A stretch of DNA of 62,317 nucleotides from an uncultured Candidatus Saccharibacteria bacterium (GCA_964392285.1 CAYMOW010000003.1:1-62317), one strand, 5' to 3'. Shown: positions 25,605-60,990, numbered from the stretch's first letter. The notes: generated by a model not told the origin, from the letters alone. Translations and numbers: made by a program.

Positions 25605-25613
25605 ACGAAAATT

Positions 25614-26913: not shown

Positions 26914-27768
26914 ATGTTAAAGAAAATAATAAAAAACATAACTCCACCACTACTGTACATAGCACTCAGAAATTTTATTAATAGAAAAAACTATAGACCG
27001 ACTTGGAGCCGGTTCAATTTCGAACCATTAAACGGTATTAACATATTCTTTGATCCAAATGGCTCATGGCAACGGAAGATGCTATCCGGTCAATACGACC
27101 CATATCTATTCGAATCTCTTAAATCAATCGATACGCAAGGTAAAATAATTTTTGACATAGGATCCCATATAGGATTTCATTCACTTTTATTTGCTCGATT
27201 AACAGGAGAAAAAGGAAAGGTCTATGCTTTTGAACCAAACAAAGTCAACGTTGAAAGAATTAAATTGATCTTGAACAAAAACCAAGATGTTTCGAAAATT
27301 GTAAGAGTTCATACCATAGCCATCTCCAACAAGGTCGGCTATGAAGATTTTGTCTTGAATAACGACATTGAAAGTGGTAGGAGTTCTGGAAATTTCATAA
27401 AAGGTGCAGATACTTTTTGGGAAAAAGAAACTTATTACAAAAAAGGATTCTTTTCCGACAAAGTCGAAACTATTTCTCTAGACCAACTAGATAGTGTGTT
27501 AGGAATAAAAGACCTACCCGACATCATGAAAATTGATGTAGAGGGAGCCGAGTACATGGTCCTACTTGGAGCTGAAAGGCTAATAAGTAATAAAAAACCT
27601 ATTATTTTTATAGAGGTGCACTCAATATTAAACATGTTTAACGTGCTGATTTATTTGCAATCCAAAAATTACTCAGTGAAAATAATTAATGCAGAGTCTA
27701 GTGGTCCTTGTTTTATAGAAGCAAAACCAATAAACAAAGATGAAAATTCACATAACCACAATATTTGA
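26914..27768 (+). CDS. FkbM-family SAM-dependent methyltransferase
   Basis: The pattern is FDIGSHIGFHSLLFARLTGEKGKVYAFEPNKVN ... IMKIDVEGAEYMVLLGA, the FkbM pattern. Confidence 0.8.
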   Translation: MLKKIIKNITPPLLYIALRNFINRKNYRPTWSRFNFEPLNGINIFFDPNGSWQRKMLSGQYDPYLFESLKSIDTQGKIIFDIGSHIGFHSLLFARLTGEKGKVYAFEPNKVNVERIKLILNKNQDVSKIVRVHTIAISNKVGYEDFVLNNDIESGRSSGNFIKGADTFWEKETYYKKGFFSDKVETISLDQLDSVLGIKDLPDIMKIDVEGAEYMVLLGAERLISNKKPIIFIEVHSILNMFNVLIYLQSKNYSVKIINAESSGPCFIEAKPINKDENSHNHNI

Positions 27769-28681
27769 CAAAAACTATCTTGTAAGAGCTTTGGCTTTCA
27801 GAGAATCTCTTTACAGATATGCACCAGAGGCGAATGTTTACATGTTGTGCCTTGATTTGGAAACATACACAATATTAGAAGAAATGGCTTTAGAAAAAAC
27901 AAAAATATTCAAAGCCGAGGATTTGGGAGACACAGAGCTTATGGAGGTAAAATCAGTTCGGACCTTACCAGAATTTGCGTCAACCTGCAAACCAGCCTTT
28001 TTAAAACATGTCTTTAATTTAGAGGTAGTTAGCAATGACGACTTATTGGCATTTATAGACCCAGATATTCTTTTCTATCACAACACAGAACACGTATTCA
28101 ATCAAATTTTCAATTCAGGATCTATAACAATCACACCCCATAGATTTCCTGCCCAAAGAGACAATGAAAAATACAAAAAAGGAACCTACAACGCTGGTAT
28201 GATTTTTTTTAGAAAAGACAATAATACCAGAATATGTATCGAGGAGTGGAGAAAACAATGCATAGATTGGTGTTATATAAGATACGAGGACGGAAAGATT
28301 GGAGATCAAGGTTATTTGACAGAATGGCCAAAAAAATATGCTGGAGTATTTATTTTAGAGAATAAAGGTGTAAACCTTGGCTCTTGGAATATAGAAAACT
28401 ATAAGATCAAATATAGAAACAACGAATTTTTAATAGATGATGAAATTCTAATCTGCTACCACTTTCATGGACTTAAAATATACCTCGATAATAAAAATTA
28501 TGTCAGGATCTTACCCGTCACAATTCTCCATGAAAAAATATATGAAATCTACAGAGAAAAACTTGATTTAGCTTACAAAAAAATAATTGCTCTAAAATAT
28601 TCTTGGGTGTATGGTTTTATAAAACATCCCGGGTTCATCAGAATAATAAAACAGAAAATCTTTAAATTATTGCGCCTATAA
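27740..28681 (+). CDS. GT-A fold nucleotide-diphospho-sugar glycosyltransferase (GT8-like)
   Basis: It reads IHITTIFDKNYLVRALAFRESL..., has the DxD-like FIDPDILFY, and NAGMIFFRK. It overlaps the upstream gene by 29 nt. Confidence 0.5.
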   Translation: MKIHITTIFDKNYLVRALAFRESLYRYAPEANVYMLCLDLETYTILEEMALEKTKIFKAEDLGDTELMEVKSVRTLPEFASTCKPAFLKHVFNLEVVSNDDLLAFIDPDILFYHNTEHVFNQIFNSGSITITPHRFPAQRDNEKYKKGTYNAGMIFFRKDNNTRICIEEWRKQCIDWCYIRYEDGKIGDQGYLTEWPKKYAGVFILENKGVNLGSWNIENYKIKYRNNEFLIDDEILICYHFHGLKIYLDNKNYVRILPVTILHEKIYEIYREKLDLAYKKIIALKYSWVYGFIKHPGFIRIIKQKIFKLLRL

Positions 28682-30781
28682 TTTGGGTCGTCTTTTATCA
28701 AAGTATAGATTTACAAGATTGCCAAGTTCGACAGCTTTCATGGCACTACAAGCCACCTTACCAGAAAATACTTGCCAATAACCAGGCAATAATTCGTTTA
28801 CAATCGACGGTCGAGTATCTGTTGAATCTCTTCTAGGCAAAACTATTCTAGTCGTATACATCGAAGATACGTGGGTACAATCATCCAGACCAGACATCCA
28901 TTTACCCCATTTTACCTTGTATTTTTCAAACCTCTCTTTTCTCCTTCTTGGTTCATCGTAATATCTTCTATCAAAATTAAATTTTGGAAACTTTCCGATA
29001 CTTCTCTCCAAAACAGACAACTCAACATCATAAAATAAATATTCATCCGAATAACCAAAGGGCATGACACCAAAGAAGGCACCATCTATTATCGACCAAC
29101 CAGCCCCACTCCAGTTGGTTTTGACAACAGGGACCTCACAAAGTTCATATTGAAATTCATCCAACGGCAATCCTAGCATATCATTAATAAAATTTATTCC
29201 GGCATAAGTAGCATTTATAAGCACCTCAGACTCCACAACCCCACCTTTTTCGCCACATTTGTAAGAAATCTTATAAATATCGCCCTTTCTAGTTATGCCA
29301 TTTACTTCTGTATTTAAATACAGAGAAATATTTTTTGCTTGATTTATTTTTTTAATCAAAAAATCTCTTTCCCTATTTGCATCAAAAATATTTTCCGGGA
29401 CATTAACACTAAGTGATAACATTTCCCTGTTTAAACCAAAACCCTCAGGCCAAGATTCCTTATAAGGCAAATTCATTCTCTTACAAAATTCAATGAATTC
29501 ATTCTTACTTGTTTTACTTCCCTCTCTAGCCACCAAATAATAGTTATCAATTTCCCTTATTACTGATTTACCAAAATAATCCTCAAATGGTTTTTTGGCC
29601 TCCAAACTTTCACAAACAGTTCTTTCGTCTCTTGGGTAATGGTAACCCATATGAACTCGACATTGATTAACCAAAGACGCTTCGCTTATTATGTCGTCAT
29701 TCTTTTCAAAAATATTGACCTTATAGCCACATCGAGCAATATTGAGAGCCGACAGAACCCCAAATATACCGCCACCTATTACCGTCACAGTCTTATTTGC
29801 ATTATGTAGTCCAAGCTCATTAATAGATACGACCATTTTTGCAACATCAGTGTATCTTTCCAATGTCAAAATCTCTGACGACGTCCCCCCATTCAATCTA
29901 AAATACTCAAGATTAAGCCTAATCATTTGTTCTAAAATATCCTCCTTAAATTCCATTTTTTTGTTTTTTGTTGAGATAAAAGGATATTCCAAAAAACCAT
30001 CATCACCAATTATCCCCGCAAGATCGGCAAAAAAGTCCGGCTCTGTGCTTTCGTGCAAATGTATTCTGATACTATCTTTTTTTAAACCAGCTTTTAATTC
30101 AGATACCGCCTTTATTGCAACGGCACCACTAAAAAATAATTCCAATCTAATGTCTGAATTCTCGTTAAATCTAAAAGTTGTCTGGCAATTTATTAAGTCA
30201 AGATCAAATAAAATTTGGATAATATGTGGCAAAAAGGCTGTTATGGGGCTATAAACTTTAAGCCTCGAATCATCAAAATTCCTAGAAAAGTTTAGTTCCA
30301 CACTCTTTATATTTTCTCTGTTTTTATCTATAAAATTTTTTGTTGATTTTATTAATGCAGAATAATGCCATTGGGATGCAACCGCAATCTTGAGATTATA
30401 TTTCTTCTTTAAATTTTGTATTTTTAACAGTTCATCTGATTTGAGAGCAATCGGTTTTGGTAAAATAAAACTTCTACCACCTATAGCGATTAAATTTTCC
30501 AAAACACTCAATAAATTTATCTGATGGACACAAATATCAAAAATTTCTTCTCCATTTGAAGATCCAAAAAAATTTTTGTAATCGTGGGGTGATTTAAAAT
30601 ATGGCACCAACTTTAGATATTCACTGTCCGATTTTGTTGGACTTATCAATGCCCTTATCTCTACATCAGGAAATTTAATATATTTTCTGGCTGCAAGCGA
30701 TCCATATACTCCACCTCCAACAATAACAATTTTAATCATCAGACTAAATATACCACACAAAGTATTGGAGTCAAAAATCAC
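28676..30781 (-). CDS. Fusion protein: N-terminal Gfo/Idh/MocA-like NAD(P) oxidoreductase plus C-terminal FAD-dependent (DAO-superfamily) oxidoreductase
   Basis: There are two Rossmann motifs: KIVIVGGGVYGSLAARKY at the N-terminus and VTVIGGGIFGVLSALNIARCGYKVNIFEKN at about residue 335. FILPKP resembles the EKP motif. The C-half block VNQCRVHMGYHYPRD parallels INQYRLHRGFHYPRS of the 47520-48566 product. Confidence 0.65.
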   Translation of the reverse strand: MIFDSNTLCGIFSLMIKIVIVGGGVYGSLAARKYIKFPDVEIRALISPTKSDSEYLKLVPYFKSPHDYKNFFGSSNGEEIFDICVHQINLLSVLENLIAIGGRSFILPKPIALKSDELLKIQNLKKKYNLKIAVASQWHYSALIKSTKNFIDKNRENIKSVELNFSRNFDDSRLKVYSPITAFLPHIIQILFDLDLINCQTTFRFNENSDIRLELFFSGAVAIKAVSELKAGLKKDSIRIHLHESTEPDFFADLAGIIGDDGFLEYPFISTKNKKMEFKEDILEQMIRLNLEYFRLNGGTSSEILTLERYTDVAKMVVSINELGLHNANKTVTVIGGGIFGVLSALNIARCGYKVNIFEKNDDIISEASLVNQCRVHMGYHYPRDERTVCESLEAKKPFEDYFGKSVIREIDNYYLVAREGSKTSKNEFIEFCKRMNLPYKESWPEGFGLNREMLSLSVNVPENIFDANRERDFLIKKINQAKNISLYLNTEVNGITRKGDIYKISYKCGEKGGVVESEVLINATYAGINFINDMLGLPLDEFQYELCEVPVVKTNWSGAGWSIIDGAFFGVMPFGYSDEYLFYDVELSVLERSIGKFPKFNFDRRYYDEPRRRKERFEKYKVKWGKWMSGLDDCTHVSSMYTTRIVLPRRDSTDTRPSIVNELLPGYWQVFSGKVACSAMKAVELGNLVNLYFDKRRPKL

Positions 30782-30804
30782 ACAGGGGGGTCTTTTGTGT
30801 TATA

Positions 30805-31851
30805 GTGTTAGAATTCAAATTCATGAGAAATTTAGACAAAATAAAAACCTTTGATACTCCAATATTATTTGTCGTATTCAATCGTCCAAATATTACACAG
30901 AGAGTATTTGATGAGATAAGAAAAATTAGACCTTCCAAACTTTACGTAGCCGCAGATGGCCCAAGAAACAATAATGTGAACGACGAAAAAAATTGTGCCT
31001 TGACTCGCAAAATCTTTGATGATATAGACTGGCCCTGTGAAATTTATACCCTATACCAAGAAAAAAATCTGGGTTGTAAATATGCAGTCACAGCGGCATT
31101 TGATTGGTTCTTCAATAATGTAGAGGAAGGAATAATACTTGAGGATGATGATTTACCAGATCAGACATTTTTTCAATTTTGCCAAGAGATGTTGAAGGAG
31201 TACAGAAACGACCCCAGAATAATGCATATTTCCGGCGTCAATTTTCAAGGTAACAATAGAGAACTTAAGCTTAATGATAGTTATTACTTTTCGCGAATCC
31301 CCCACATTTGGGGCTGGGCCTCCTGGAGAAGGGCTTGGCAATTAAATAGTGTAGAAGTGGAAAAATGGCCTGAAATGAGGGGACAGAGAAGTCTTAGCAA
31401 AATATTTAAAGACCCAGCCATAGCTTTCTTCTGGGGTAAGAAATTTCAAAAATACTACGAGGGCAAAATAAACAGCTATGATGGGCAATGGGTATTCACT
31501 TGTCTGAAGTATGGTGGTTTGTGTATAAATCCAGTTACAAATTTGGTTTCCAATATTGGCTTTGGTGCCAATTCAACACACACATCAAGCCGGAGTGATT
31601 TTGCAAACCTGCCAACATCCAGTATTAAATTCCCACTGAAGCATCCAGAAAAAGTTGAGGTTAATGAAATAGCAGACAATTTTACACACAAATACGCCTT
31701 CGATATAAATAAAACTTTGAACCAAAAAATAAAATGGTTTTTAAAATTTTATTTCACAAAACCATACCTATTAGCAAAAAAATATTTCTATAAATTACTA
31801 CTTAAAAAGAACATTTATGATGACACATATCTTTTATCCTTCTTTAACTAG
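30805..31851 (+). CDS. GT-A fold glycosyltransferase (GT2/GnT-I-like, EDD motif)
   Basis: It reads PILFVVFNRPNITQRVFDEIRKIRPSKLYVAADGPR ... GIILEDDDLPDQTFF. The track start is GTG 30805; ATG 30823 (MRNLDK...) is an alternative. Confidence 0.55.
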   Translation: MLEFKFMRNLDKIKTFDTPILFVVFNRPNITQRVFDEIRKIRPSKLYVAADGPRNNNVNDEKNCALTRKIFDDIDWPCEIYTLYQEKNLGCKYAVTAAFDWFFNNVEEGIILEDDDLPDQTFFQFCQEMLKEYRNDPRIMHISGVNFQGNNRELKLNDSYYFSRIPHIWGWASWRRAWQLNSVEVEKWPEMRGQRSLSKIFKDPAIAFFWGKKFQKYYEGKINSYDGQWVFTCLKYGGLCINPVTNLVSNIGFGANSTHTSSRSDFANLPTSSIKFPLKHPEKVEVNEIADNFTHKYAFDINKTLNQKIKWFLKFYFTKPYLLAKKYFYKLLLKKNIYDDTYLLSFFN

Positions 31852-32694
31852 CGCAATGGAAACTAAAACTTTTTTGAATCTTCGCAATACATGATACTTG
31901 ATAGCTGCCAAAAATTTATCTAGTTTATTTATCAAAAAACCAGTCATGGGATCAAATTTTTCTTTACCAAAGAAGTAAATTATACTTTTCAATACCGACT
32001 TCTCTGTTTTGTCTATGTATTTCAAAAGAGGTAACAATAGATTACCCTTTCCTCCGGCAAAATGAATAAAACTTGATTCTTCATACATTTTTATAACCTT
32101 TGATAACCCCTGACCATGGGTAGCCCTATACGGAAACACCATTACATTGAATTCCGGAGGTAAGTAGACCCCTTCACGGTCATTAATCAAATGGTAAGAA
32201 AGAGGACCATTCTCTCGACATCCTTGCTCAGGATAATCATTGAAAACTTTTTCCAACAGGGGTTTATACGTTTTCCTGATTACAAAGGACCCCGTGTTCA
32301 CTACAAAATTAGGTCTATTTTCTTTTGGGCAACAATCATACAGTGCTGGTTCAGTCTTGGTGAGGTAGTCAAAATTATATGGATTATTATTGACAATACC
32401 CCAAGGTTTGTCACCAACAATCAAAAACGGATCTTTTGCATGTTTTGTAGCAAAAATATCTGCGTCTAAAAAGAACGCCCAGTTATATTTAGCAATTCTT
32501 GGATGATCAAACATTAATAATTTTTGCCACGAGGCATGCTTACCCCGAGGACCAATCCAATCGTCTACAATAACCAATTCTGCACCAATTTTGTTGGCAT
32601 AATTATCAATACTATCACCAAATCTCTTTTTAAAAATATTTAGATACTTTTGACCGATGGCCACAATCACAACGACTTTTTTTTCTTCTGTCAT
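31834..32694 (-). CDS. Putative GT-A nucleotide-sugar transferase (GT8/GT34-like)
   Basis: The 286-aa product reads VVIVAIGQKYLNIF... and has the DxD motif FLDADIF. It sits among other GT genes. Confidence 0.45.
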   Translation of the reverse strand: MTEEKKVVVIVAIGQKYLNIFKKRFGDSIDNYANKIGAELVIVDDWIGPRGKHASWQKLLMFDHPRIAKYNWAFFLDADIFATKHAKDPFLIVGDKPWGIVNNNPYNFDYLTKTEPALYDCCPKENRPNFVVNTGSFVIRKTYKPLLEKVFNDYPEQGCRENGPLSYHLINDREGVYLPPEFNVMVFPYRATHGQGLSKVIKMYEESSFIHFAGGKGNLLLPLLKYIDKTEKSVLKSIIYFFGKEKFDPMTGFLINKLDKFLAAIKYHVLRRFKKVLVSIALVKEG

Positions 32695-32710: not shown

Positions 32711-33742
32711 TTAATATAAGGTTGTCCATAATTTCATGGCTTTTTTCTGCTGCTTCCAATAAACGTCGTTCAAATTCAATTTATGAGCCAGCTCATAATA
32801 ACAATCCTTGAATGTTTTTGATGTTAGTCTAACTTCATCAACTTTTTGCCATAGATATTCATTCACCCTTAAACCAGTTTTTTCTTTCTTAATATTTGTC
32901 AAAGGGTTGCTTGCCCTATCGTGCCAAATAATGGGATCTCCAGAGGATATCCCAAATCCTAAATGATCCGAGATCTTTTTCAAAAAAATACCACACCAAA
33001 TATCTCCAAACCTATCGTAACCCCAATGTCTACCATTTTTATCTTGCCCCATGAGCAAAAAGAACATAGCCGGAGTCACCTCTTTTTTCCACGCTATATT
33101 CATACCACACATAGGAAAAAATTTTCCCATAGAAAATCTTTGCTGTATAGCATAGCCCTTAAGGCCGCTAGTTTTCTTAGCTTTTAACTGTGTCGTACCA
33201 TCAAAATCCGGAACATTGTACCAAAGACCGTGATTCAACACTGTGTTCTCAATAACATTTTTTTTAAAGTTTTTGTAAGGTATACCACGCGGTCTGAAAT
33301 CACTTATTGTACTGATCCACATAGATTCAACTTTACTTTTTGTATTATACAAAGCATTCCAATGCATATTAATCAAACTACTCCTTATGTCTTTCAAGTA
33401 ATGTGCCAGAGGATAACAATCATCATCGAGGGTTATTATCATATCTGGATTCATTTTGTAAGCTTTGAAGTACCCATAACTTCTAACACAATCTGTTCTT
33501 CGTGGAATGATCCACGATTTTTTACCTAAATCTTTTTCTATATCTTCCCAAGAATAATGAGTAACTTCTGATTTTTTATAGAGCAATTTAAATGTCTTGG
33601 TGGGGTTATCTTCTACCAAAATAAGATGCACATTAAAATTTTTATTACCAAAAAATTCCCTCTGCCATTCCTGCAAAAATCTTTTTATGGATTGTTCACG
33701 AATAGTCGGAACCACAATAACAACCTTTTTTTTCTTGGCCAT
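32711..33742 (-). CDS. Reversibly glycosylated polypeptide (RGP) / GT75 family protein, a UDP-arabinopyranose-mutase-like enzyme
   Basis: Blocks are collinear with plant RGP1 as I remember it:
- VVIVVPTIREQSIKRFLQEW
- ITLDDDCYP (plant IDDDCF)
- RGIPY (RGYPF)
- NHGLWYNVPDFDGTTQL (SHGLWLNIPDYDAPTQL)
- FPMCGMNIAWKKEVTPAMFFLLMG ([25 protein letters not shown])
- DRFGDIWCGIFLKKISDHLGFGISSGDPIIWHDRASNP (DDMWAGWCxKVICDHLxLGVKTGLPYIxHSKASNP). Confidence 0.8.
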   Translation of the reverse strand: MAKKKKVVIVVPTIREQSIKRFLQEWQREFFGNKNFNVHLILVEDNPTKTFKLLYKKSEVTHYSWEDIEKDLGKKSWIIPRRTDCVRSYGYFKAYKMNPDMIITLDDDCYPLAHYLKDIRSSLINMHWNALYNTKSKVESMWISTISDFRPRGIPYKNFKKNVIENTVLNHGLWYNVPDFDGTTQLKAKKTSGLKGYAIQQRFSMGKFFPMCGMNIAWKKEVTPAMFFLLMGQDKNGRHWGYDRFGDIWCGIFLKKISDHLGFGISSGDPIIWHDRASNPLTNIKKEKTGLRVNEYLWQKVDEVRLTSKTFKDCYYELAHKLNLNDVYWKQQKKAMKLWTTLY

Positions 33743-33757
33743 ATTTTATAAGTACTA

Positions 33758-34684
33758 TTATTTATAATTTTTGATCAAATTAATACCTGTTTTTATATCT
33801 ATCTTTGGTTGCCAACCCAATAAAGATCTGGCCTTGCCTATATCAGCTAGAGCATGTTTTGGTTCTAATCTTTTTGCTATATATTTCTTCTTCCCACCAA
33901 TAATAGACGCTATCTCGTTTACAGATGTATTCACACCAGAACCTATATTGATAATTTCACCATTTCCTACTTTTTTGGATTTTAAAGCTCGCATATTGGC
34001 ATCTACTACGTCACTGACATATATAAAATCTCTGGTTTGCCTCCCCGATCCAGTTATGGTCATTGGTTTTTTATTTTTGCTCTGATTAATAAATTTGGCT
34101 ATCAACATGGCATAATTCCCGTTAGGGTCTTGCCCTAAACCATAAACATTAAAATATCGCAAAGAAACAGTCTTTATACCATACACTTTACTATAAGTCT
34201 TACAAGCCTGTTCGCCAAAATATTTTTGTAATGCATAAGGACTTTTTGGGGCAGGAGACATTTCCTCTCTTAGAGGAAGTTCATCCTGATCTCCATACAC
34301 AGAACATGAGGCTGAATAGATGAATTTTCTGGCTTTATATTTTACTGATAAAATCAGGATGTTGTGTATACCATCTACATTTACTTCATGACTCTCAAGT
34401 GGATTATCAATTGAAAATTGAACCATAGGAATCGCAGCACAATGGAATACAGCGTATATACTAGAAATTGATCTAAAAACCTTATCAACCTTATTCATAT
34501 CTCTTATATCTACAGCATGGACAATAGCACCAGTGGGAATATTCTCTTTTTTGCCAGTAAAGAAATTATCAACTATATGCACTTCAAAACCTTTTTCAAT
34601 CAAGCGTCTGGATAGATGTGACCCTATAAAACCAGCTCCACCGGTCACAATTATTTTACGTTTTTTTTCTTGCGTCTTAGACAT
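33758..34684 (-). CDS. NAD-dependent SDR nucleotide-sugar 4-epimerase/dehydratase (GalE/UXS-like)
   Basis: It has KIIVTGGAGFIGSHLSRRLIEKGFEVHIVDNFFTGKKENI and the catalytic SPYALQK (YxxxK). It lies directly upstream of the RGP gene. Confidence 0.85.
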   Translation of the reverse strand: MSKTQEKKRKIIVTGGAGFIGSHLSRRLIEKGFEVHIVDNFFTGKKENIPTGAIVHAVDIRDMNKVDKVFRSISSIYAVFHCAAIPMVQFSIDNPLESHEVNVDGIHNILILSVKYKARKFIYSASCSVYGDQDELPLREEMSPAPKSPYALQKYFGEQACKTYSKVYGIKTVSLRYFNVYGLGQDPNGNYAMLIAKFINQSKNKKPMTITGSGRQTRDFIYVSDVVDANMRALKSKKVGNGEIINIGSGVNTSVNEIASIIGGKKKYIAKRLEPKHALADIGKARSLLGWQPKIDIKTGINLIKNYK

Positions 34685-34706: not shown

Positions 34707-35240
34707 TTACTTAATAAAGTGCTCTACTATTGGGATATGGCCTTTTACAATATTGGAAGGAAGGTTCGATATTGGGAAAAATTTTTCGTTTTCATTTTCT
34801 CTAAACTCCCCTAGAATATTAGTCGTAAATACTAAGGAAAGTTCATAACCTCTTTTCGATTGACCATCACCATCACCCTGTAATCTTTCAAACCATTTAT
34901 AAAAAATAGGCTTATCCACTTCCACCATTATCTCTTTTTCTAAGACTCTTCTGAGGGTGTCCTGGATACACTCCAATGGTAAATGAACACATCCAGGAAT
35001 ATGCCATCCATCAAAAAACTTGTCTTTGCGATATATTAGTAATATTTCCGGCCCGTTTCCAATATCTCTGAATACCGCCACTTCGGCACAAACGATACCA
35101 AAAGTTTTACACCAAGCCTCAAATACCGGTAAAGGCACCGGGAATTTTAACTTGTGCATCAACCTGACTAATTCAAATTGTTCTTCTTCTGTTAAAGACA
35201 TCATATTTATAAATACAAGTCTACATATTAGAACAACCAC
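34707..35240 (-). CDS. Putative Nudix-family hydrolase
   Basis: A Nudix-box-like stretch GCVHLPLECIQDTLRRVLEKEIMV is present (Gx5Ex7R..LEKE). The real start is probably the internal MMSLTEEEQ. Confidence 0.45.
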   Translation of the reverse strand: MVVLICRLVFINMMSLTEEEQFELVRLMHKLKFPVPLPVFEAWCKTFGIVCAEVAVFRDIGNGPEILLIYRKDKFFDGWHIPGCVHLPLECIQDTLRRVLEKEIMVEVDKPIFYKWFERLQGDGDGQSKRGYELSLVFTTNILGEFRENENEKFFPISNLPSNIVKGHIPIVEHFIK

Positions 35241-35376: not shown

Positions 35377-36072
35377 ATGAATCCCCTACGCAAACTGATA
35401 CAAAAGACTGGTTTTGATTTGCACCGTTATAAGTCAGAAATAGACCGGGGCAAAATTTGGCGAAGTTTGAATATTCAGACTATTTTAGACATCGGCGCCA
35501 ACACCGGCCAGTTTGCCAGCTCCATACGTCAGGCCCTGCCGGAGGCTCAAATATACTCGTTCGAGCCTCTAAAGAGCTGTTTTGAGAGCCTGGTAGCCTC
35601 GCGCGCCGGGGATGCCAAATTCAAGGCTTTTAACTACGCTTTGGGCGATCGGAGTGAGGAAATAGAGATACACAAAAGTGCCTACTCCCCCAGCTCCTCG
35701 ATCCTTGAAATGTCGCAAACTCATAAAGAGCTTTTTCCTCACACCCAAGAGCACACGAGCGAAAAGATACAAATCAAGCGATTGGATGAAGTGGCCCAGA
35801 ATTTAAATTTGGCCAAAGAAATTTTGATCAAGGTGGATGTGCAAGGTTTTGAGCACAAAGTTTTGGCCGGCGGATTACAAACCTTTAGCTTGGCCAAAGC
35901 GGTCATTATGGAAGTGTCTTTTGTAAAACTTTACGAGGGTCAGCCGAGTTTTGATGAGCTTTATACTAATCTCAAAAATCTCGGTTTTGAATACAGGGGT
36001 TCGCTTGAACAAAAAAACGACAAGCATTCTGGCGCCGTTATTTCTGAAGATTCACTATTTATAAAATACTAA
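35377..36072 (+). CDS. FkbM-family SAM-dependent methyltransferase
   Basis: It reads ILDIGANTGQFASSIRQALPEAQIYSFEPLKSCFESL ... LIKVDVQGFEHKVLAGG. Confidence 0.8.
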   Translation: MNPLRKLIQKTGFDLHRYKSEIDRGKIWRSLNIQTILDIGANTGQFASSIRQALPEAQIYSFEPLKSCFESLVASRAGDAKFKAFNYALGDRSEEIEIHKSAYSPSSSILEMSQTHKELFPHTQEHTSEKIQIKRLDEVAQNLNLAKEILIKVDVQGFEHKVLAGGLQTFSLAKAVIMEVSFVKLYEGQPSFDELYTNLKNLGFEYRGSLEQKNDKHSGAVISEDSLFIKY

Positions 36073-36096
36073 AATTATGCGAAAAGCCACGAAAAG

Positions 36097-37179
36097 TTAC
36101 GAAAATACTTTTAGAATTTGATCCGCAAGAACTTTTGGGGTGAATTTTTCTTGAAAAATCTTACGGCCATTCTCGCCCAATTTGCTCAATAAATCAGGGT
36201 TGTTTTTTAGATAAAGAATCTTATCGGCCAAATCTTGCGGGTCGGCCGGGTTTGCAAACATCACCTCTTCAGCCTCTTTTAGTATTTCTGCCACTGGTTC
36301 GGTCCGGGCCGTAATATAAGGCAGACCCAGGGCCAAGGACTCAAAACACTTATGAGGTATGGTGCGCGAGAGGCGTTCGTGCTTTTCGAATTGGCCCAAA
36401 GAGATGTGGCAAGAGAGCATCATCTTTCGCAAATCTTCATTTGACAAATTTTCTGTAATTAATTCCAAATTCTTCAACCCTAATTCTTGATTCATAATTC
36501 TTAATTCTTTCTCCAGCCAACCATTGCCAATAATCAAAAAATTTACCCCCTTTTCTTCCAAAATTTTGGCCGATTTTATAATATGCTTCATTCCGGCTTC
36601 AGGTAAAAACTTGCCTCGAAACAGAGCTGTAAACTTTTCTCTTTTTTTTATCTCTGGTTCAACAAAGAACACTGAGTCATCAGCGCCGGTATAGACAACC
36701 TTGTATTTTGGACTTTGGCCAAATTGCTCTACAAAATATTTTCTTTGGGCCTCACTCTCGACCAGCACAATATCAGCACACTTTACTGCCAGCCAATCAA
36801 TGAATTTGATATACCAAGCTTTCAAACCCCAAAATCCCCTGTTTTGCCTAGAGAGCACCACCCCTTCATACATTGTGCATAGCGCATCAAAAACAACTAT
36901 CTTTGAGGACAGAAGTTTAGCGAACCAAACGACCGAATGGCTAGGATAGCCGACTACCAAAGCATCGTATTTGCCTGACAAATTTTTGTGTTTGCGGAAA
37001 AGCTCAACATACTTTTGTAGACCCGGTGCCAGACTCTGGCACTCCAGAATTTCAACCCCAAGCTGTCTTAGGCCTTGGGTATAGATTCTAGACCGGCCCC
37101 AACTTGAATTGTATGTGCCGAACCAACAGATACGAAATAACGAATTTTTTAACGAATGGCCACGAATAGAGTTATTCAT
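36097..37179 (-). CDS. Glycosyltransferase family 4 (GT-B, group 1)
   Basis: The 360-aa product has a C-terminal GT1-type block: LGQFEKHERLSRTIPHKCFESLALGLPYITART. There is an 8-nt overlap between its start and the upstream GT-C gene's end. Confidence 0.75.
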   Translation of the reverse strand: MNNSIRGHSLKNSLFRICWFGTYNSSWGRSRIYTQGLRQLGVEILECQSLAPGLQKYVELFRKHKNLSGKYDALVVGYPSHSVVWFAKLLSSKIVVFDALCTMYEGVVLSRQNRGFWGLKAWYIKFIDWLAVKCADIVLVESEAQRKYFVEQFGQSPKYKVVYTGADDSVFFVEPEIKKREKFTALFRGKFLPEAGMKHIIKSAKILEEKGVNFLIIGNGWLEKELRIMNQELGLKNLELITENLSNEDLRKMMLSCHISLGQFEKHERLSRTIPHKCFESLALGLPYITARTEPVAEILKEAEEVMFANPADPQDLADKILYLKNNPDLLSKLGENGRKIFQEKFTPKVLADQILKVFS

Positions 37180-38860
37180 TACATTTAAATATTTTAGTCG
37201 TTATATATCGATCATTTTTTTCATATATATTTTTGCAGGAGCTAAGGTATTTGGAATAGAAATTATTCTCATCGATCCTAGGAATATCTATGTAGAGAAT
37301 ATGGCCTGAAAAATCTTTGAAGAAATCTCGATAAGTGCTTTCAAATTGTGGGGTGGCATAGAGCCGCCTTGCATATTTACCTGTTTTTTGGATTTCGTAA
37401 CCACCGATATCATTGTAGACCACCACCTTTTCGATTTCTTCATGCTCTGCTATATACGCTTCGCTACTCGCAAAAAGCCGATAGGGACTGCCGTTGATCT
37501 TGCCCCAAAGATACTCTTCGATAAAAACTCCGTTATAGAGTAGCCCAAGGACAAGAATTGACACCAAAGACCCTCTTTTGAATTCCGCTTTTCTCATCGC
37601 CCAAAAAGCAAAGACGAGCGAACAAATCCAAATGGTAGCGATAAAAGCAAAGGAAACATAAAAGCCGGTCGGCCCCGAACCGCCAGTGAAGGGAAAAAGA
37701 AAATTCCATTTCAAAGACAGAGCGCGCTCCAGCCATTCAGTTTTTGGATAATGCGGCGGCACAAAGTGGTTAAAAAATTGCAGAGAAAAAATTACGATAG
37801 CAAAAATTACCGGTATCACCACCTCACCCCAAGAAAACTCCGTTTTCTTTCCCCCCTCCTTGACAAGGAGAGGGGCCGGGGGTGAGGTCTGTGCAAACAG
37901 CGCGCCAACCAAAACAACCAGGGGTAGAATTAGAAACTGAAAATATCTATCAAGGGCGCCGGAAGAAAAGTCGAAAGCCACAAGATAAAAGAACAGACCA
38001 ACGATTATAAAAAGGATAAACGGGCGATACCTCGATATCATCTCTCTTTGCAAAAAAAGTATAGGTAGCACCAAAAGCGGCGACAGATACATAATCGATT
38101 TGGCCAACTGAATCATAGTTTGCAACCAACCCCTACCACCAAACCTAACGAAGTGCTCCCAATATTTAAGCGAGGCTTCCAATTTGAAAAAGGGAAAGAG
38201 TAGTTTCGCAAGCAAGAGCAACAAACCCAAAAAAACTGCCCCACTCAACGCATAGGCGAAATACTTCAATATTTTTCTGCGATCCGAAAAAACATTCTTT
38301 TCAAAAGCAAAGTCGAGAGCTAAGGCCGCAATAGCTATAACAAAGCTCGCTTTTACAAAAAAGCCTGCTACTGCCCCAACCACCAAAATTACAAACCACG
38401 CCCAATTCTTACTAAGCTCAAAGCCCTTAGCTCTTAGCTTGAAGTGCCCAATACACATAATCAAGAAAAATGTCGGCATTATTGCCCCATCGGTATCAAC
38501 CATTAGCGAAGCGAGGACAGAATAGAAAGAGACAGCAAAAAAGAATACCGACCAAAGTGCGCTTTTCTTGTCCCCCACCATTTTGGCGAGATAAAAAAGC
38601 AAAACCATATTCAAAAAAGAAAAGGCGAGCGGAATAATTCTAAAATTGTCGTAACCAACCAGTGCGCCCAGCTCTCGATAAATAAACTCGCCAACTGGTG
38701 GGTGTGGTATACCGCCCGGCTCGGTTAGCGCTGGATTTACAATAATCGGCCATTTGTATTCGTCCTGGTGATAGAGATTATCAATCCCATCTACACGCAA
38801 GACAAAAAAGAGCACCAGGACCCCCAACCCAATCAAAATATCTTTTTTAGTCCAACTCAT
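37172..38860 (-). CDS. GT-C fold membrane glycosyltransferase (GT39/ArnT/PMT-like)
   Basis: The 562-aa product has about 12 TM segments. An acidic DE motif sits in the first loop (NLYHQDEYKW). It carries repeat copy B in a loop (QTSPPAPLLVKEGGK). Confidence 0.5.
   Translation of the reverse strand: MSWTKKDILIGLGVLVLFFVLRVDGIDNLYHQDEYKWPIIVNPALTEPGGIPHPPVGEFIYRELGALVGYDNFRIIPLAFSFLNMVLLFYLAKMVGDKKSALWSVFFFAVSFYSVLASLMVDTDGAIMPTFFLIMCIGHFKLRAKGFELSKNWAWFVILVVGAVAGFFVKASFVIAIAALALDFAFEKNVFSDRRKILKYFAYALSGAVFLGLLLLLAKLLFPFFKLEASLKYWEHFVRFGGRGWLQTMIQLAKSIMYLSPLLVLPILFLQREMISRYRPFILFIIVGLFFYLVAFDFSSGALDRYFQFLILPLVVLVGALFAQTSPPAPLLVKEGGKKTEFSWGEVVIPVIFAIVIFSLQFFNHFVPPHYPKTEWLERALSLKWNFLFPFTGGSGPTGFYVSFAFIATIWICSLVFAFWAMRKAEFKRGSLVSILVLGLLYNGVFIEEYLWGKINGSPYRLFASSEAYIAEHEEIEKVVVYNDIGGYEIQKTGKYARRLYATPQFESTYRDFFKDFSGHILYIDIPRIDENNFYSKYLSSCKNIYEKNDRYITTKIFKCNE
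37844..37888. repeat. Palindromic mini-element, copy B, inside the GT-C gene
   Basis: The sequence is tttctttcccccctccttgacaaggagaggggccgggggtgaggt. An inverted copy of the tail (acctcacccc) lies at 37821-37830. Confidence 0.8.
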
Positions 38861-60667: not shown

Positions 60668-60778
60668 GTTCTGGCGCCTAGCTACTCTCCCCTTTTCAGA
60701 GTACCATCGCCTCTACGAAGCTTAACTTCCGTGTTCGGAATGAGAACGGGTGTGGCCTTCGCGATAAAGCACCAAAAC
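60668..60778 (-). rRNA. rrf: 5S ribosomal RNA
   Basis: The minus strand reads guuuuggugcuuuaucgcgaaggccacacccguucucauuccgaacacggaaguuaagcuucguagaggcgaugguacu...ggagaguagcuaggcgccagaac. The conserved CCGAACACGGAAGUUAAGC core is present. Helix I pairs the two ends over 12 bp. Confidence 0.9.
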
Positions 60779-60854
60779 AGGTGTCTCGATTTTATTAACA
60801 ATTATCAATTTATATTTGATCCCTCGAATGCTGACCCGATTATAAAAATCGGGT

Positions 60855-60990
60855 TGGCGGAGGGTGACAGGACTCGAACCTGTAAACCATCCCTAGCCAT
60901 TTGAACAACTGTGTCAAAATCATTAACCTTTCTTAAGGGTTGATTTTGACTTTTCAAACAGCTGGGAGAGCTCGCACCATACCCCCCCGC
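60855..60990 (-). ncRNA. tRNA-like RNA with a canonical T arm, a 7-bp acceptor stem and an encoded GCCA. A helical rod of about 78 nt replaces the D and anticodon arms. It could be an intron-containing or degenerate tRNA, or a tRNA mimic.
   Basis: The T arm is acagg-ttcgagt-cctgt (60883-60867). The acceptor pairs ggggggt (60987-60981) with accctcc (60865-60859), and the third pair is G:U; G-CCA follows. The rod spans 60967-60890 and contains 15+13 bp. I could not build a standard cloverleaf by hand. Confidence 0.45.

What the first reader, a model, noticed from the sequence alone, without database searches (positions are those of the whole stretch)
32711..34684. Plant-type RGP/GT75 (UDP-arabinopyranose mutase-like) gene paired with an SDR 4-epimerase: a possible UDP-arabinofuranose route
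**Similarity to plant RGPs.** The 343-aa product is collinear, block for block, with plant reversibly glycosylated polypeptides. Shared blocks are DDDC, RG(I/Y)P, (N/S)HGLWxNxPDxDxxTQL, FPMCGMN, GDIWCG...DHLG...G.P.IWH..ASNP, and even the C-terminal CYxEL region.

**Function in plants.** This family interconverts UDP-L-arabinopyranose and UDP-L-arabinofuranose.

**Neighbouring gene.** The gene immediately upstream on the same strand is a GalE/UXS-like SDR (GGAGFIGSH, SPYALQK). It could supply UDP-Arap from UDP-Xyl.

**Context and implication.** Both genes lie in an AT-rich glycan cassette behind a Wzm/Wzt exporter. This would imply a furanose-containing surface glycan made by a route best known from plants.
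Basis: partly seen in the sequence, partly recalled or inferred. Interest (0 to 1): 0.7.

Follow-up and report, generated by a model that had tools for sequence, protein, structure and literature searches.

The report
Bacterial sugar-ring mutase, plant-like
An uncultured ultrasmall bacterium (Patescibacteria-like) carries a relative of the plant enzyme that turns six-membered sugar rings into five-membered ones, placed so that it probably supplies an unusual sugar for the cell-surface coat; this is a new member of a known enzyme family, not a new kind of system.

Summary
Window 32711-33742(-) encodes a 343-aa GT75/RGP protein. It matches Pfam PF03214 at E 8.5e-46 over its full length, and its predicted fold matches only MtdL and rice UAM2. 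All residues shown by mutagenesis to be needed for NDP-pyranose-to-furanose mutase activity are present.

The protein lies in a tight NUDIX-SDR-GT75-p286 operon within a Wzm/Wzt glycan cluster. The SDR is a GalE/WbpP-like 4-epimerase, not a UXS. p286 is an unclassified retaining-type GT-A glycosyltransferase.

The GT75 belongs to a large uncharacterised prokaryotic clade (relatives found in 223 genome stretches, more than 12 phyla). That clade is sister to plant UAMs (33% identity) and further from the known bacterial GT75 mutases MtdL and Hyg20 (26%).

Two results support a mutase role. In syntenic clusters the same slot holds a flavin UGM-like mutase. In another locus GT75 sits beside the stump of such a gene.

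The sugar is unresolved. A relative (L057) has GT75-UXS-epimerase-UGD-like genes, a complete UDP-L-Araf route, and five loci carry a UGD-like gene. The window itself has no UXS or UGD in 62 kb, so UDP-Galf remains a close rival.

Verdict: a new member of a known kind, of moderate interest.

The parts
32711..33742 (-). GT75/RGP-family protein (343 aa), a predicted Mn2+-dependent NDP-sugar pyranose-to-furanose mutase. Key residues: P12-T13-I14, D45, N46, T83-D84, R87, D106-D107-D108, R152 (nucleophile / autoglycosylation Arg), D179-F-D181, G213-M214, R244, D247 (general base), H274, R276, N279.
   Evidence: Pfam RGP E 8.5e-46 over full length. Residue mapping onto MtdL using the mutagenesis data in PMC9937993. 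Predicted fold matches MtdL and OsUAM2 only.
33758..34684 (-). Extended SDR (308 aa), a GalE/WbpP-like NDP-sugar 4-epimerase. It has the NAD motif TGGAGFIGSH, the S...Y-x3-K triad (SPYALQK), no decarboxylase/dehydratase Glu, and a small residue (Ala) where WbpP has Ser (RHSLAD vs KHALAD), which I recall to be the 'gatekeeper' position.
   Evidence: Pfam Epimerase E 2.4e-63. TIGR01179 galE scores 176 bits, below the 262 cut-off. Best solved relatives are T. maritima GalE (188 bits) and WbpP (174 bits). It is the only extended SDR in the window.
31834..32694 (-). p286: an unclassified 286-aa glycosyltransferase with no Pfam or NCBIfam hit. It has a GT-A fold with a DxD motif (D77-A-D79) and an H211-F-A-G motif. 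It is the candidate furanosyltransferase and starts 16 nt after the GT75 stop.
   Evidence: Only 15 homologues, the named ones from Paceibacterota. AlphaFold pLDDT 90.7. Foldseek matches retaining UDP-sugar GT-A enzymes: PBCV-1 A64R (E 9e-11), XXT1 (GT34), ABO and alpha3GalT (GT6) and glycogenin (GT8). Its homologues sit next to a UGM-like mutase where GT75 is absent.
34707..35240 (-). NUDIX-domain protein and first gene of the co-directional NUDIX-SDR-GT75-p286 block. It belongs to the conserved cluster backbone rather than to the mutase module.
   Evidence: Pfam NUDIX E 1.9e-5. A homologue (44% identity) occupies the same position in syntenic L089, which lacks GT75.
24762..26906 (+). Wzm (ABC-2 permease, 24762-25604) and Wzt (ABC ATPase with a Wzt_C glycan-binding domain, 25614-26906): the exporter of the glycan.
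   Evidence: Pfam ABC2_membrane, ABC_tran and Wzt_C.
26914..31851 (.). Other genes of the AT-rich cassette: an FkbM methyltransferase (26914-27768, +); p313 (27740-28681, +; DxD motif, no Pfam); a 701-aa GFO_IDH_MocA-like + DAO flavoprotein fusion (28676-30781, -); and p348 (30805-31851, +; EDDD motif, no Pfam).
   Evidence: Pfam scans. p313 and p348 are conserved at 42-53% identity in the syntenic clusters L088 and L089.
35377..38860 (.). Flanking cluster genes: an FkbM methyltransferase (35377-36072, +), a GT4 glycosyltransferase (36097-37179, -) and a PMT_2 GT-C glycosyltransferase (37172-38860, -).
   Evidence: Pfam. The same order is seen in L085, L088 and L089.

Best explanation
**What it is.** The 343-aa protein is a functional GT75-family, Mn2+-dependent nucleotide-sugar pyranose-to-furanose mutase. 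It works inside a four-gene operon (NUDIX, 4-epimerase, GT75, p286 glycosyltransferase) of a Wzm/Wzt-exported surface-glycan cluster in a Patescibacteria-like bacterium.

**Proposed sequence of steps.**
1. The GalE/WbpP-like SDR inverts C4 of a gluco/xylo-configured UDP-sugar to give the galacto/arabino configuration. My leading candidate is UDP-Xyl to UDP-beta-L-Arap.
2. GT75 binds the UDP-sugar through Mn2+ (D108, H274), R244 and R276.
3. Arg152, deprotonated by Asp247, attacks C1. The ring opens and recloses through O4. The product is released as the UDP-furanose (UDP-L-Araf).
4. The adjacent retaining-type GT-A enzyme p286 transfers the furanose to the lipid-linked glycan.
5. The glycan is exported by Wzm/Wzt.

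**Shown:** family membership, an intact catalytic residue set, operon structure and conserved synteny.

**Inferred:** enzymatic activity, the identity of the sugar and the role of p286.

**My probabilities:**
- It is a furanose-forming mutase feeding this glycan: about 0.8.
- The nucleotide is UDP: about 0.75.
- The sugar is L-arabinose: about 0.45. This is the confidence given for the full statement.
- The sugar is D-galactose: about 0.3.
For: **Family and fold**
- Pfam RGP E 8.5e-46.
- The predicted structure matches only MtdL and OsUAM2 at TM 0.76-0.78.

**Catalytic residues**
- Every residue whose mutation abolishes mutase activity in MtdL or AtRGP2 (PMC9937993) is conserved: D84, D106-108, R152, D179, R244, D247, H274 and R276.
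- These are all invariant across the 120 closest homologues except D84 (89 of 120) and R276 (108 R, 12 K).
- H274 and R244 are the residues lost in the inactive class-2 plant proteins.

**Position in the family**
- 32-33.5% full-length identity to active plant and algal UAMs, against 26% to MtdL. The clade is sister to plants in an NJ tree.
- It shares the plant P-T-I, C-G-M-N and A-S-N-P motifs rather than MtdL's T13, S228-Q229 and H292.

**Operon and synteny**
- Intergenic gaps are 15-22 nt.
- The cassette SDR (60%) - GT75 (69%) - p286 (78%) - p348 recurs in an independent contig, L084.

**Mutase role by displacement**
- In the syntenic Paceibacterota cluster L088, the slot between the FkbM methyltransferase and the p286 homologue holds RmlB plus a 438-aa protein whose only PDB hits are UDP-galactopyranose mutases, at E 1e-18.
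- In L009, GT75 is followed by the 3' third of such a UGM-like gene.

**Evidence against GDP-L-Gal**
- L003 carries GME plus an MtdL-type GT75, and in addition a window-type GT75.

**Pentose route**
- L057 has GT2 - GT75 (49% identity, identical residue signature) - UXS (399 bits to human UXS1) - 4-epimerase (50% identity to the window SDR) - UGD-like.
- A UGD-like gene lies 1-4 kb from GT75 in five loci. L107 also has a window-type SDR at 53% identity.

**Glycan context**
- A GT2 lies within 300 nt of GT75 (adjacent or overlapping) in 25 of 80 loci and within 3 kb in 35 of 80.
Against: - There is no biochemical evidence for any member of this clade.
- The window contains no UXS, UGD or other SDR in 62 kb, so a UDP-Xyl source is unproven for this organism.
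- At the position of AtRGP2 S91 / MtdL D87, where swapping the residue kills activity in either enzyme, the window protein has the MtdL-like T-D rather than the plant D-S. N46 may also be MtdL-like.
- The 60%-identical relative in L081 sits next to GMD and Fcl (GDP-L-fucose genes). Its downstream GT2 best matches galactofuranosyltransferase GlfT1, though below the cut-off.
- The SDR has a small 'gatekeeper' residue, which suggests broad hexose/HexNAc specificity (the gatekeeper reading rests on my own knowledge).
- SDR adjacency is confined to close relatives (6 of 80 loci).
- To my knowledge L-Araf is rare in described bacterial glycans, whereas Galf is common.
Confidence: 0.45

Rival explanations
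1. **Flavin-independent UDP-galactofuranose route.** The SDR is a UDP-Glc/UDP-Gal 4-epimerase. GT75 converts UDP-D-Galp to UDP-D-Galf, replacing the usual FAD-dependent Glf/UGM. p286 is a galactofuranosyltransferase.
For: - The operon would then be self-sufficient from universal UDP-Glc, and no UXS or UGD is present in the window.
- Plant GT75 enzymes (OsUAM1, AtRGP2) do interconvert UDP-Galp and UDP-Galf (PMC9937993).
- The displaced or alternative enzyme in L088 and L009 is UGM-like.
- The GT2 after GT75 in L081 best matches GlfT1.
- Most GT75 loci carry no dedicated precursor genes, which fits a housekeeping precursor.
- D84 could bind a C6-OH, as MtdL D87 does with GDP-Glc. This last point is speculative.
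Against: - Known UAMs handle UDP-Gal only inefficiently (PMC6861824).
- The L057 operon, with UXS and a UGD-like gene, and the recurrent UGD-like neighbour in five loci have no role in a Galf route.
- The UGM-like protein in L088 sits beside RmlB, so it may act on a dTDP-6-deoxyhexose rather than UDP-Gal.
- The GlfT1 match is far below its cut-off (67 vs 330 bits).
Confidence: 0.3
2. **MtdL/Hyg20-like GDP-sugar mutase.** The enzyme converts GDP-L-fucopyranose or GDP-L-galactopyranose to the furanose form.
For: - The only characterised bacterial GT75 enzymes use GDP-L-Gal or GDP-L-Fuc (PMC9937993).
- The window protein has MtdL-like T83-D84, and possibly N46, at positions implicated in base or sugar selection.
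- L081 has GMD (581 bits) and Fcl 1.3 kb downstream of a 60%-identical GT75.
Against: - The window protein lacks MtdL's T13, S228-Q229 and H292 and has the plant residues instead.
- It is closer to plant UDP-sugar enzymes.
- The co-operonic SDR is UDP-hexose-4-epimerase-like, not GME, GMD or Fcl.
- In L003 a true GME plus MtdL-type pair coexists with a window-type GT75, which implies different substrates.
- p286's structural neighbours all use UDP-sugars.
Confidence: 0.07
3. **Mutase acting on another 4-epimerised UDP-sugar.** The substrate would be UDP-GalNAc (giving GalfNAc) or UDP-GalA.
For: - The SDR is as close to the UDP-GlcNAc 4-epimerases WbpP and WbgU (161-174 bits) as to GalE. It has Ala at what I recall as the gatekeeper position, aligned with a Ser in WbpP (RHSLAD vs KHALAD).
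- The UGD-like neighbours, and an SDR whose best solved relative is a UDP-GlcA 4-epimerase (6zl6, 127 bits), would also fit UDP-GalA.
Against: - No GT75 enzyme is known to act on N-acetylated or uronic substrates.
- The UXS in L057 points to a pentose.
- The SDR that accompanies the UGD-like gene carries an S-R-E-V-Y-G motif, typical of decarboxylases and dehydratases rather than epimerases (sequence; motif reading from my own knowledge).
Confidence: 0.08
4. **Not a mutase in vivo.** The protein acts only as a self-glycosylating (Arg-glycosylated) polypeptide or primer, as an ordinary glycosyltransferase, or as a non-catalytic scaffold like the class-2 plant RGPs.
For: - GT75 proteins have autoglycosyltransferase activity, and some (AtRGP5, OsUAM2) are catalytically inactive (PMC9937993, PMC6861824).
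- No member of this clade has been assayed.
Against: - The residues lost in inactive class-2 proteins (H287 and R257 equivalents, and the third D of DDD) are all retained and invariant in the clade.
- Positional exchange with UGM-like mutases is hard to explain for a non-mutase.
Confidence: 0.1

Closest known systems
Plant and green-algal class-1 UDP-arabinopyranose mutases (OsUAM1/3, AtRGP1-3; CAZy GT75, Pfam PF03214)
   Same: - Full-length collinearity at 32-33.5% identity.
- Shared motifs and residues: P-T-I, DDD, the catalytic Arg, DxD, C-G-M-N, R..D and W-H-x-[KR]-A-S-N-P.
- The same predicted fold.
- A probable UDP-sugar substrate with galacto/arabino configuration.
   Different: - A separate (sister) clade, not nested within the plant group.
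- T-D instead of D-S at the AtRGP2 S91 position.
- D-N-P instead of D-G-D at the first 'DxD'.
- DFD instead of DYD.
- Encoded in a bacterial operon for an ABC-exported surface glycan rather than serving Golgi cell-wall synthesis.
- Substrate untested.
MtdL (A201A pathway, Marinactinospora) and Hyg20 (hygromycin A, Streptomyces): bacterial GT75 GDP-L-Gal / GDP-L-Fuc pyranose mutases (PDB 7xpr, 7yua)
   Same: - Bacterial GT75 enzymes that are Mn2+-dependent.
- The same catalytic Arg, Asp and His set.
- Predicted structure TM 0.78.
- T/S-D motif at positions 86-87.
   Different: - Only 26% identity over 263 aa.
- Different residues at T13, S228-Q229 and H292.
- MtdL and Hyg20 serve antibiotic (secondary-metabolite) pathways with GDP-sugars made by GME. 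The window enzyme sits with a UDP-type 4-epimerase in a surface-glycan cluster.
- A genuine MtdL-type paralogue coexists with the window type in L003.
FAD-dependent UDP-galactopyranose mutase (Glf/UGM) with galactofuranosyltransferases in O-antigen and galactan clusters
   Same: - The same logical module: 4-epimerase, then pyranose mutase, then furanosyltransferase, in an ABC-transporter-dependent glycan cluster.
- UGM-like genes occupy the equivalent slot in L088, and one was apparently overwritten by GT75 in L009.
   Different: - Unrelated fold and chemistry: a flavin N5 nucleophile versus an Arg guanidinium plus Mn2+.
- No UGM motif was found in the window.
Plant UDP-Xyl 4-epimerase (MUR4) / UXS / UGD route to UDP-L-Ara
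   Same: L057 encodes UGD-like, UXS, a 4-epimerase and GT75 together. This is the same four chemical steps as in plants.
   Different: - In the window only the epimerase and the mutase are present.
- The UGD-like protein of the relatives is a truncated form of about 270 aa that lacks the C-terminal domain.

Membership tests
GT75 / RGP (Pfam PF03214) | Significant full-length match to the family profile | tested here: met
   E 8.5e-46, 157 bits (cut-off 23.8), residues 3-342 on profile positions 2-336 of 342.
GT75 / RGP (Pfam PF03214) | Conserved DDD (DxD) metal and sugar-nucleotide motif | tested here: met
   D106-D107-D108 aligned with MtdL D109-111 and invariant in 120 homologues.
GT75 / RGP (Pfam PF03214) | Conserved Arg that is autoglycosylated and acts as nucleophile (OsUAM1 R158, MtdL R159) | tested here: met
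   R152 in RPRGIPY, invariant.
GT75 / RGP (Pfam PF03214) | Residues that distinguish active mutases from inactive class-2 RGPs: the Mn2+ ligand His (MtdL H287), the beta-phosphate Arg (R257) and the general-base Asp (D260) | tested here: met
   H274, R244 and D247 are present and invariant. Rice UAM2 (8cid) has R, T and D at these positions.
GT75 / RGP (Pfam PF03214) | GT-A Rossmann-like domain plus the family-specific core and C-terminal helical domains | tested here: met
   AlphaFold model with pLDDT 86. Foldseek: MtdL TM 0.78 and OsUAM2 TM 0.76 at E about 1e-21. The next hits are generic GT-A enzymes at E about 1e-6.
GT75 / RGP (Pfam PF03214) | Divalent-cation-dependent NDP-pyranose/furanose mutase activity and autoglycosylation | not testable with these tools
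   Requires recombinant enzyme assays.
Plant-type class-1 UAM (UDP-L-Arap specific) | Groups within the plant/algal UAM clade | tested here: not met
   The NJ tree places it in a separate prokaryotic clade that is sister to plants, at 33% identity.
Plant-type class-1 UAM (UDP-L-Arap specific) | D-S pair at AtRGP2 D90-S91 (the S91D mutation abolishes activity) | tested here: not met
   The window protein has T83-D84.
Plant-type class-1 UAM (UDP-L-Arap specific) | P-T-I nucleotide loop, G-M (AtRGP2 G216) and the A-S-N-P loop | tested here: met
   P12-T13-I14, G213-M214 and A277-S278-N279-P280 are identical to six plant and algal UAMs.
MtdL/Hyg20-type GDP-sugar mutase | T13, S228-Q229 and H292, and association with GME or other GDP-sugar genes | tested here: not met
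   The window has P12, G213-M214 and N279, and its neighbour is a UDP-type 4-epimerase. The true MtdL-type signature plus GME is seen in L003.
GalE-like NDP-sugar 4-epimerase (extended SDR) | GxxGxxG NAD motif and Ser/Tyr/Lys triad, without the decarboxylase/dehydratase Glu | tested here: met
   TGGAGFIGSH; S-C-S-V-Y-G; SPYALQK. The UXS of L057 has S-T-S-E-I-Y-G and YDEGKR.
GalE-like NDP-sugar 4-epimerase (extended SDR) | Reaches the curated equivalog cut-off for GalE (TIGR01179) | tested here: not met
   176 bits against a cut-off of 262. The substrate therefore cannot be assigned by this model.
UDP-xylose synthase (UXS) | T-S-E and Y-D-E-G-K-R catalytic motifs, with high similarity to UXS1 | tested here: not met
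   These motifs are absent from the window SDR and from all six reading frames of the window. The SDR scores 140 bits to human UXS1, against 399 bits for the L057 UXS.
ABC-transporter-dependent (Wzm/Wzt) glycan pathway | ABC-2 permease plus an ATPase with a Wzt C-terminal carbohydrate-binding domain in the same cluster | tested here: met
   24762-25604 and 25614-26906. The same pair is found in the syntenic clusters L080, L088, L089 and L108.

The most novel reading that the evidence does not exclude
The window enzyme represents a widespread, uncharacterised prokaryotic sister clade of plant UAMs. This clade would be the bacterial, flavin-independent source of UDP-L-arabinofuranose (and possibly UDP-Galf) for surface glycans in Patescibacteria, Planctomycetota, Chloroflexota, Acidobacteriota and other uncultured phyla. 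It would repeatedly swap places with flavin UGM-like mutases and work with a new glycosyltransferase family (p286) that transfers furanoses. If so, the plant cell-wall Araf pathway (UGD, UXS, UXE, UAM) has a complete bacterial counterpart, seen as one operon in L057, and the plant enzyme may have a prokaryotic origin.
Probability: 0.35. Interest if true: 0.65.

Novelty: new member of a known kind. Interest (0 to 1): 0.48.

Why it matters
**Why furanose sugars matter.** L-Araf and Galf are absent from animals. They mark cell envelopes that are antigenic, that serve as phage receptors and that are drug targets.

**What is known.** Only two routes to NDP-furanoses are known: flavin UGMs and GT75 enzymes. 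In bacteria, GT75 has been shown only in two antibiotic pathways.

**What this case suggests.** A distinct GT75 clade of about 300 clusters at 50% identity, found in 223 genome stretches (about 220 species), serves surface-glycan synthesis across many uncultured phyla. It appears interchangeable with flavin mutases.

**What follows if biochemistry confirms UDP-L-Araf.**
- It would be, to my knowledge, the first bacterial UDP-L-Araf pathway.
- It would give a soluble bacterial source of an enzyme that is hard to produce from plants.
- It would bear on the origin of plant arabinofuranosylation.

**For this window alone.** The result is mainly a solid functional annotation plus a candidate new glycosyltransferase family.

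Tried and rejected
1. **Reading nucleotide and sugar specificity from active-site residues.** The positions highlighted by the MtdL study form a mosaic. P12, G213-M214 and N279 are plant-like. T83-D84 and possibly N46 are MtdL-like. HMMER and MAFFT also disagree on the alignment of N46. Inconclusive.
2. **Metagenome scan for close relatives of the SDR, to learn its usual neighbours.** Only four loci at 38-42% identity were found, which is too distant to inform.
3. **Motif and tblastn searches for UXS, UGD, Glf, GMD and RmlA/B in the window.** Nothing was found beyond the one SDR. The rest of the genome is not available.
4. **Promoter and terminator scan of 31.5-35.7 kb.** Counts equal the shuffled expectation, so it gives no information.
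5. **Literature searches for a characterised prokaryotic polysaccharide-linked GT75 or a bacterial UDP-Araf mutase.** Only the MtdL/Hyg20 work and plant reviews turned up.
6. **Idea that SDR-GT75 pairing is a family-wide rule.** Rejected: the pair is adjacent in 6 of 80 loci. The commonest neighbour is a GT2.
7. **Idea that the SDR is UXS-like.** Rejected on motifs and on scores.
8. **A weak GH127 (beta-L-arabinofuranosidase-like) Pfam hit on a neighbour in L080.** Not used as evidence. It was listed together with faint hits to three other families (C5-epim_C, Glyco_hydro_76, Ulvan_lyase_N).


Full report
**1. Observation**

All quoted motifs are in the translations.

The 343-aa protein matches Pfam PF03214 (RGP) at E 8.5e-46. 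The score is 157 bits against a 23.8-bit cut-off, and the match covers residues 3-342 on profile positions 2-336 of 342. NCBIfam has no model for it.

The 308-aa protein is an extended SDR. Pfam Epimerase scores E 2.4e-63. TIGR01179 galE scores 176 bits, below its 262-bit cut-off.

The context is as described:
- Wzm (24762-25604) and Wzt with a Wzt_C domain (25614-26906) are nearby.
- Many GT2, GT4 and GT-C (PMT_2) genes and FkbM methyltransferases surround the region.
- GC is 0.33-0.38 over 26-36 kb, against 0.44-0.49 in most of the rest of the window.

SecA, SecDF, FtsW, GatB and a 5S/23S rRNA fragment show that this is a bacterial chromosome. The best matches of several genes are from Patescibacteria / Paceibacterota.

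**2. What the GT75 protein is**

*Similarity to solved structures.* Against the PDB by sequence, it hits only rice UAM2 (8cid) and MtdL (7xpr, 7yua and related entries). The single sequence gives E about 1e-18. A 29-sequence profile gives E 4.6e-35 and 1.5e-33. An AlphaFold model (pLDDT 86, pTM 0.87) matches MtdL at TM 0.78 and OsUAM2 at TM 0.76, both at E about 1e-21. The next hits are generic GT-A enzymes at E about 1e-6.

*Catalytic residues.* I used the MtdL/AtRGP2 structure-function study (PMC9937993) and the HMMER alignment, which reproduces the paper's numbering. Every residue whose mutation abolishes mutase activity is conserved:

| MtdL residue | Window residue |
|---|---|
| D87 | D84 |
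| D109-111 | D106-108 |
| R159 (nucleophile / autoglycosylated Arg) | R152 |
| D195 | D179 |
| R257 | R244 |
| D260 (proposed general base) | D247 |
| H287 (Mn2+ ligand) | H274 |
| R289 | R276 |

All are invariant in the 120 closest homologues except D84 (89 of 120) and R276 (108 R, 12 K). The inactive class-2 plant protein 8cid lacks the His, the Arg257 equivalent and the third Asp of DDD. The window protein therefore has the make-up of an active mutase.

**3. Where it sits in the family**

*Family size and spread.*
- The word-indexed search found 1176 relatives.
- The exhaustive search of 1.84 billion representatives found 1254 clusters at E <= 1e-3 and 295 at E <= 1e-30.
- In one-genome-per-species GTDB contigs, 223 stretches encode relatives. 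All are in MAGs, from Patescibacteria, Planctomycetota, Chloroflexota, Acidobacteriota, Nitrospirota, Bacteroidota/Ignavibacteria, Gemmatimonadota, Armatimonadota, Dormibacterota, Myxococcota, Actinomycetota, WOR-3 and one Thermoplasmata archaeon.

*Distance to characterised members.* I retrieved authentic class-1 plant and algal UAMs.
- The window protein is 32-33.5% identical to them over 351-359 aa (157-159 bits).
- It is 25.9% identical to MtdL over 263 aa (94 bits).
- A midpoint-rooted NJ tree places the prokaryotic clade as sister to plants, with the MtdL type outside. This is a distance tree without bootstrap support.

*Specificity positions.* The enzyme is a mosaic.
- Plant-like: P12-T13-I14, G213-M214 and A-S-N-P.
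- MtdL-like: T83-D84, where plants have D-S and the AtRGP2 S91D and MtdL D87S swaps both kill activity, and possibly N46.

'Plant-type' is therefore fair as a statement of nearest characterised relatives. The protein is not a member of the plant clade. Bacterial GT75 mutases are already known, and CAZy lists bacterial and archaeal members (PMC9937993, PMC6861824).

**4. The neighbours in the window**

NUDIX (34707-35240), the SDR, GT75 and a 286-aa ORF (31834-32694, 'p286') are co-directional with 15-22 nt gaps.

*The SDR.*
- Its best solved relatives are T. maritima GalE (188 bits), WbpP (174 bits) and WbgU (161 bits). Human UXS1 scores only 140 bits.
- It has S-C-S-V-Y-G and SPYALQK. It lacks the T/S-x-E and YDEGKR motifs of UXS.
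- It has Ala where WbpP has Ser, at what I recall to be the gatekeeper position. The interpretation of that position rests on my own knowledge of the GalE literature.
- I conclude it is a 4-epimerase of undetermined, and possibly broad, specificity.
- It is the only extended SDR in the 62-kb window. No UXS or UGD motif occurs in any frame.

*p286.*
- It has no Pfam or NCBIfam hit and only 15 homologues.
- Its model (pLDDT 90.7) matches retaining, UDP-sugar-dependent GT-A enzymes: PBCV-1 A64R, XXT1 (GT34), GT6 enzymes and glycogenin (GT8).
- It has DxD and H-F-A-G motifs.

**5. Comparative context**

I called ORFs in 79 genome loci and clustered them.

*Commonest neighbours.*
- A GT2 is the commonest neighbour of GT75. 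It lies within 300 nt (adjacent or overlapping) in 25 of 80 loci and within 3 kb in 35 of 80.
- An SDR is adjacent in only 6 of 80 loci and within 3 kb in 13 of 80.
- Wzx, Wzy-like, Wzz, Wzm/Wzt, GT4, GT26 and initiating phosphotransferase genes are frequent.
- The clade is therefore a polysaccharide-cluster enzyme.

*The closest relative.* P0002 (69% identity, contig L084) has the same cassette: SDR (60%) - GT75 - p286 (78%) - p348. The module is conserved beyond the window's own lineage.

*The informative loci.*
- **(a) L057.** The order is GT2 - GT75 (49% identity, identical ten-position signature) - UXS (399 bits to human UXS1, E 1e-118) - an SDR 50% identical to the window SDR - a 267-aa UGD-like protein. 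This encodes every step from UDP-Glc to UDP-L-Araf.
- **(b) The UGD-like gene.** It recurs 1-4 kb from GT75 in L002, L010, L106 and L107, together with a second SDR type that carries an S-R-E-V-Y-G motif. L107 also has a window-type SDR at 53% identity.
- **(c) L081.** Its GT75 is 60% identical. The order is GT75 - GT2 - GMD (581 bits) - Fcl - SDR. Its GT2 best matches GlfT1, at 67 bits against a 330-bit cut-off.
- **(d) L003.** It has GME (312 bits to Arabidopsis GME) followed by an MtdL-type GT75 with T, S-Q and RNPHN signatures. A window-type GT75 (57% identity) follows two genes later. The two types are therefore not redundant.
- **(e) L088 and L089.** These are Paceibacterota clusters syntenic with the window. 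They share PMT_2, GT4, FkbM, p286 (49-56%), p313 (52-53%), p348 (42-47%), FkbM and Wzt; L089 also has the NUDIX gene (44%).
  - In L088 the slot held by SDR + GT75 in the window is filled by RmlB (356 bits) plus a 438-aa flavoprotein whose only PDB matches are UDP-galactopyranose mutases, at E 1e-18.
  - The P0127 locus is similar.
  - L089 has RmlB only.
- **(f) L009.** GT75 is followed immediately by only the 3' third (residues 264-437, 63% identity) of such a UGM-like gene. This looks like the footprint of a replacement.

Points (e) and (f) are the strongest non-sequence evidence that this GT75 acts as a pyranose-to-furanose mutase. They also make p286 a candidate furanosyltransferase.

**6. 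Mechanism and its uncertainty**

The best-supported model runs as follows:
1. A 4-epimerase makes a galacto/arabino-configured UDP-sugar.
2. GT75 contracts the ring. The chemistry is Arg152 attack on C1, assisted by Asp247 and by Mn2+ bound to D108 and H274, by analogy with MtdL.
3. p286 transfers the furanose.
4. Wzm/Wzt exports the polymer.

My estimates are about 0.8 for the mutase role and about 0.75 for UDP as the nucleotide. The latter rests on the plant-like loops, the UDP-type epimerase, p286's UDP-dependent structural relatives and the L003 result.

For the sugar:
- L-arabinose is favoured by L057, by the recurrent UGD-like neighbours and by the preference of the nearest characterised enzymes (about 0.45).
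- D-galactose is favoured by the self-sufficiency of the window operon, the lack of UXS and UGD in 62 kb, the exchange with UGM-like genes and the documented UDP-Galp activity of OsUAM1 and AtRGP2 (about 0.3).
- GDP-L-Fuc/Gal, other UDP-sugars and a non-mutase role share the remainder.

**7. Novelty and interest**

The family, its chemistry and its existence in bacteria are known. No paper in the searchable library treats this polysaccharide-associated prokaryotic clade.

The finding is a new member of a known kind. Three by-products have some value:
- a complete candidate bacterial UDP-L-Araf operon (L057);
- evidence for exchange between flavin and GT75 mutases;
- an unclassified GT-A family (p286).

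A specialist would be interested but not astonished. I score interest at 0.48.

Noticed in passing
L009:1679-3169: GT75 (1679-2653) is followed at once by only the C-terminal third (residues 264-437, 63% identity) of a UGM-like flavoenzyme gene. This looks like an in-situ replacement of a flavin mutase by a GT75 mutase.
   Followed up: partly
L088:4577-7840 (also the P0127 locus and L089): These Paceibacterota glycan clusters are syntenic with the window. Instead of SDR + GT75 they carry RmlB plus a 438-aa protein whose only PDB hits are eukaryote-type UDP-galactopyranose mutases. L089 has RmlB only.
   Followed up: yes
L003:291-4196: A WOR-3 MAG has GDP-mannose 3,5-epimerase, then an MtdL-type GT75, then a 299-aa ORF, then a window-type GT75. 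Two GT75 subtypes therefore sit in one cluster. L002 also carries two GT75 genes.
   Followed up: partly
L057:12912-13715; L002:3280-4104; L106:6255-7079; L010:~4513-5178; L107:5826-6350: A compact nucleotide-sugar dehydrogenase-like protein of about 270 aa recurs next to GT75. It has a Rossmann motif and the catalytic Cys motif GGKCLPKD but no C-terminal UDP-binding domain. Whether it is an active UDP-Glc dehydrogenase is unknown.
   Followed up: partly
window 31834-32694 (-): p286 belongs to a very small protein family (15 hits; the named ones are from Paceibacterota) with no Pfam or NCBIfam model. A confident predicted fold shows a retaining-type GT-A enzyme. It is a candidate new glycosyltransferase family.
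   Followed up: yes
window 28676-30781 (-) and 46599-48566: A 701-aa fusion of a GFO_IDH_MocA-like NAD domain with a DAO-type FAD oxidoreductase lies in the cassette. An unfused GFO (311 aa) / DAO (348 aa) pair lies 16 kb away. Their function in glycan synthesis is unknown.
   Followed up: no
window 27740-28681 (+) and 30805-31851 (+): Two further ORFs, p313 and p348, have no Pfam hit but carry DxD / EDDD motifs. Both are conserved in L088 and L089. There, the p348 homologue lies within a 566-569-aa gene annotated as an FkbM methyltransferase, i.e. is apparently fused to it.
   Followed up: partly
window 60669-62317: A 5S rRNA (60669-60776) and a partial 23S rRNA ending at model position 2651 (61985) are about 1.2 kb apart, although only about 270 nt of 23S remain. 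This may be an insertion in the 23S 3' region. No ORF of 100 aa or more lies there.
   Followed up: no
L024, L028, L036, L038, L039, L043, L062 and other Planctomycetota loci: In Planctomycetota, GT75 is followed by a protein of roughly 1100-1400 aa; the one example read contains repeated GT2-like motifs (ORF cluster c8, 14 loci).
   Followed up: no
L107:5826-7573: The UGD-like and SDR genes upstream of GT75 are split into fragments of 147-174 aa in this 660-kb Patescibacteria contig. This could be decay or sequencing error.
   Followed up: no
window 49812-51638 (-): A VirD4/TraG-like type IV coupling protein (TrwB_AAD_bind, TraG-D_C) sits between the glycosyltransferase block and a DUF4015 glycoside-hydrolase-like gene.
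   Followed up: no
window 4001-6000: A second low-GC stretch (GC 0.36) lies outside the glycan cassette. It was not examined.
   Followed up: no
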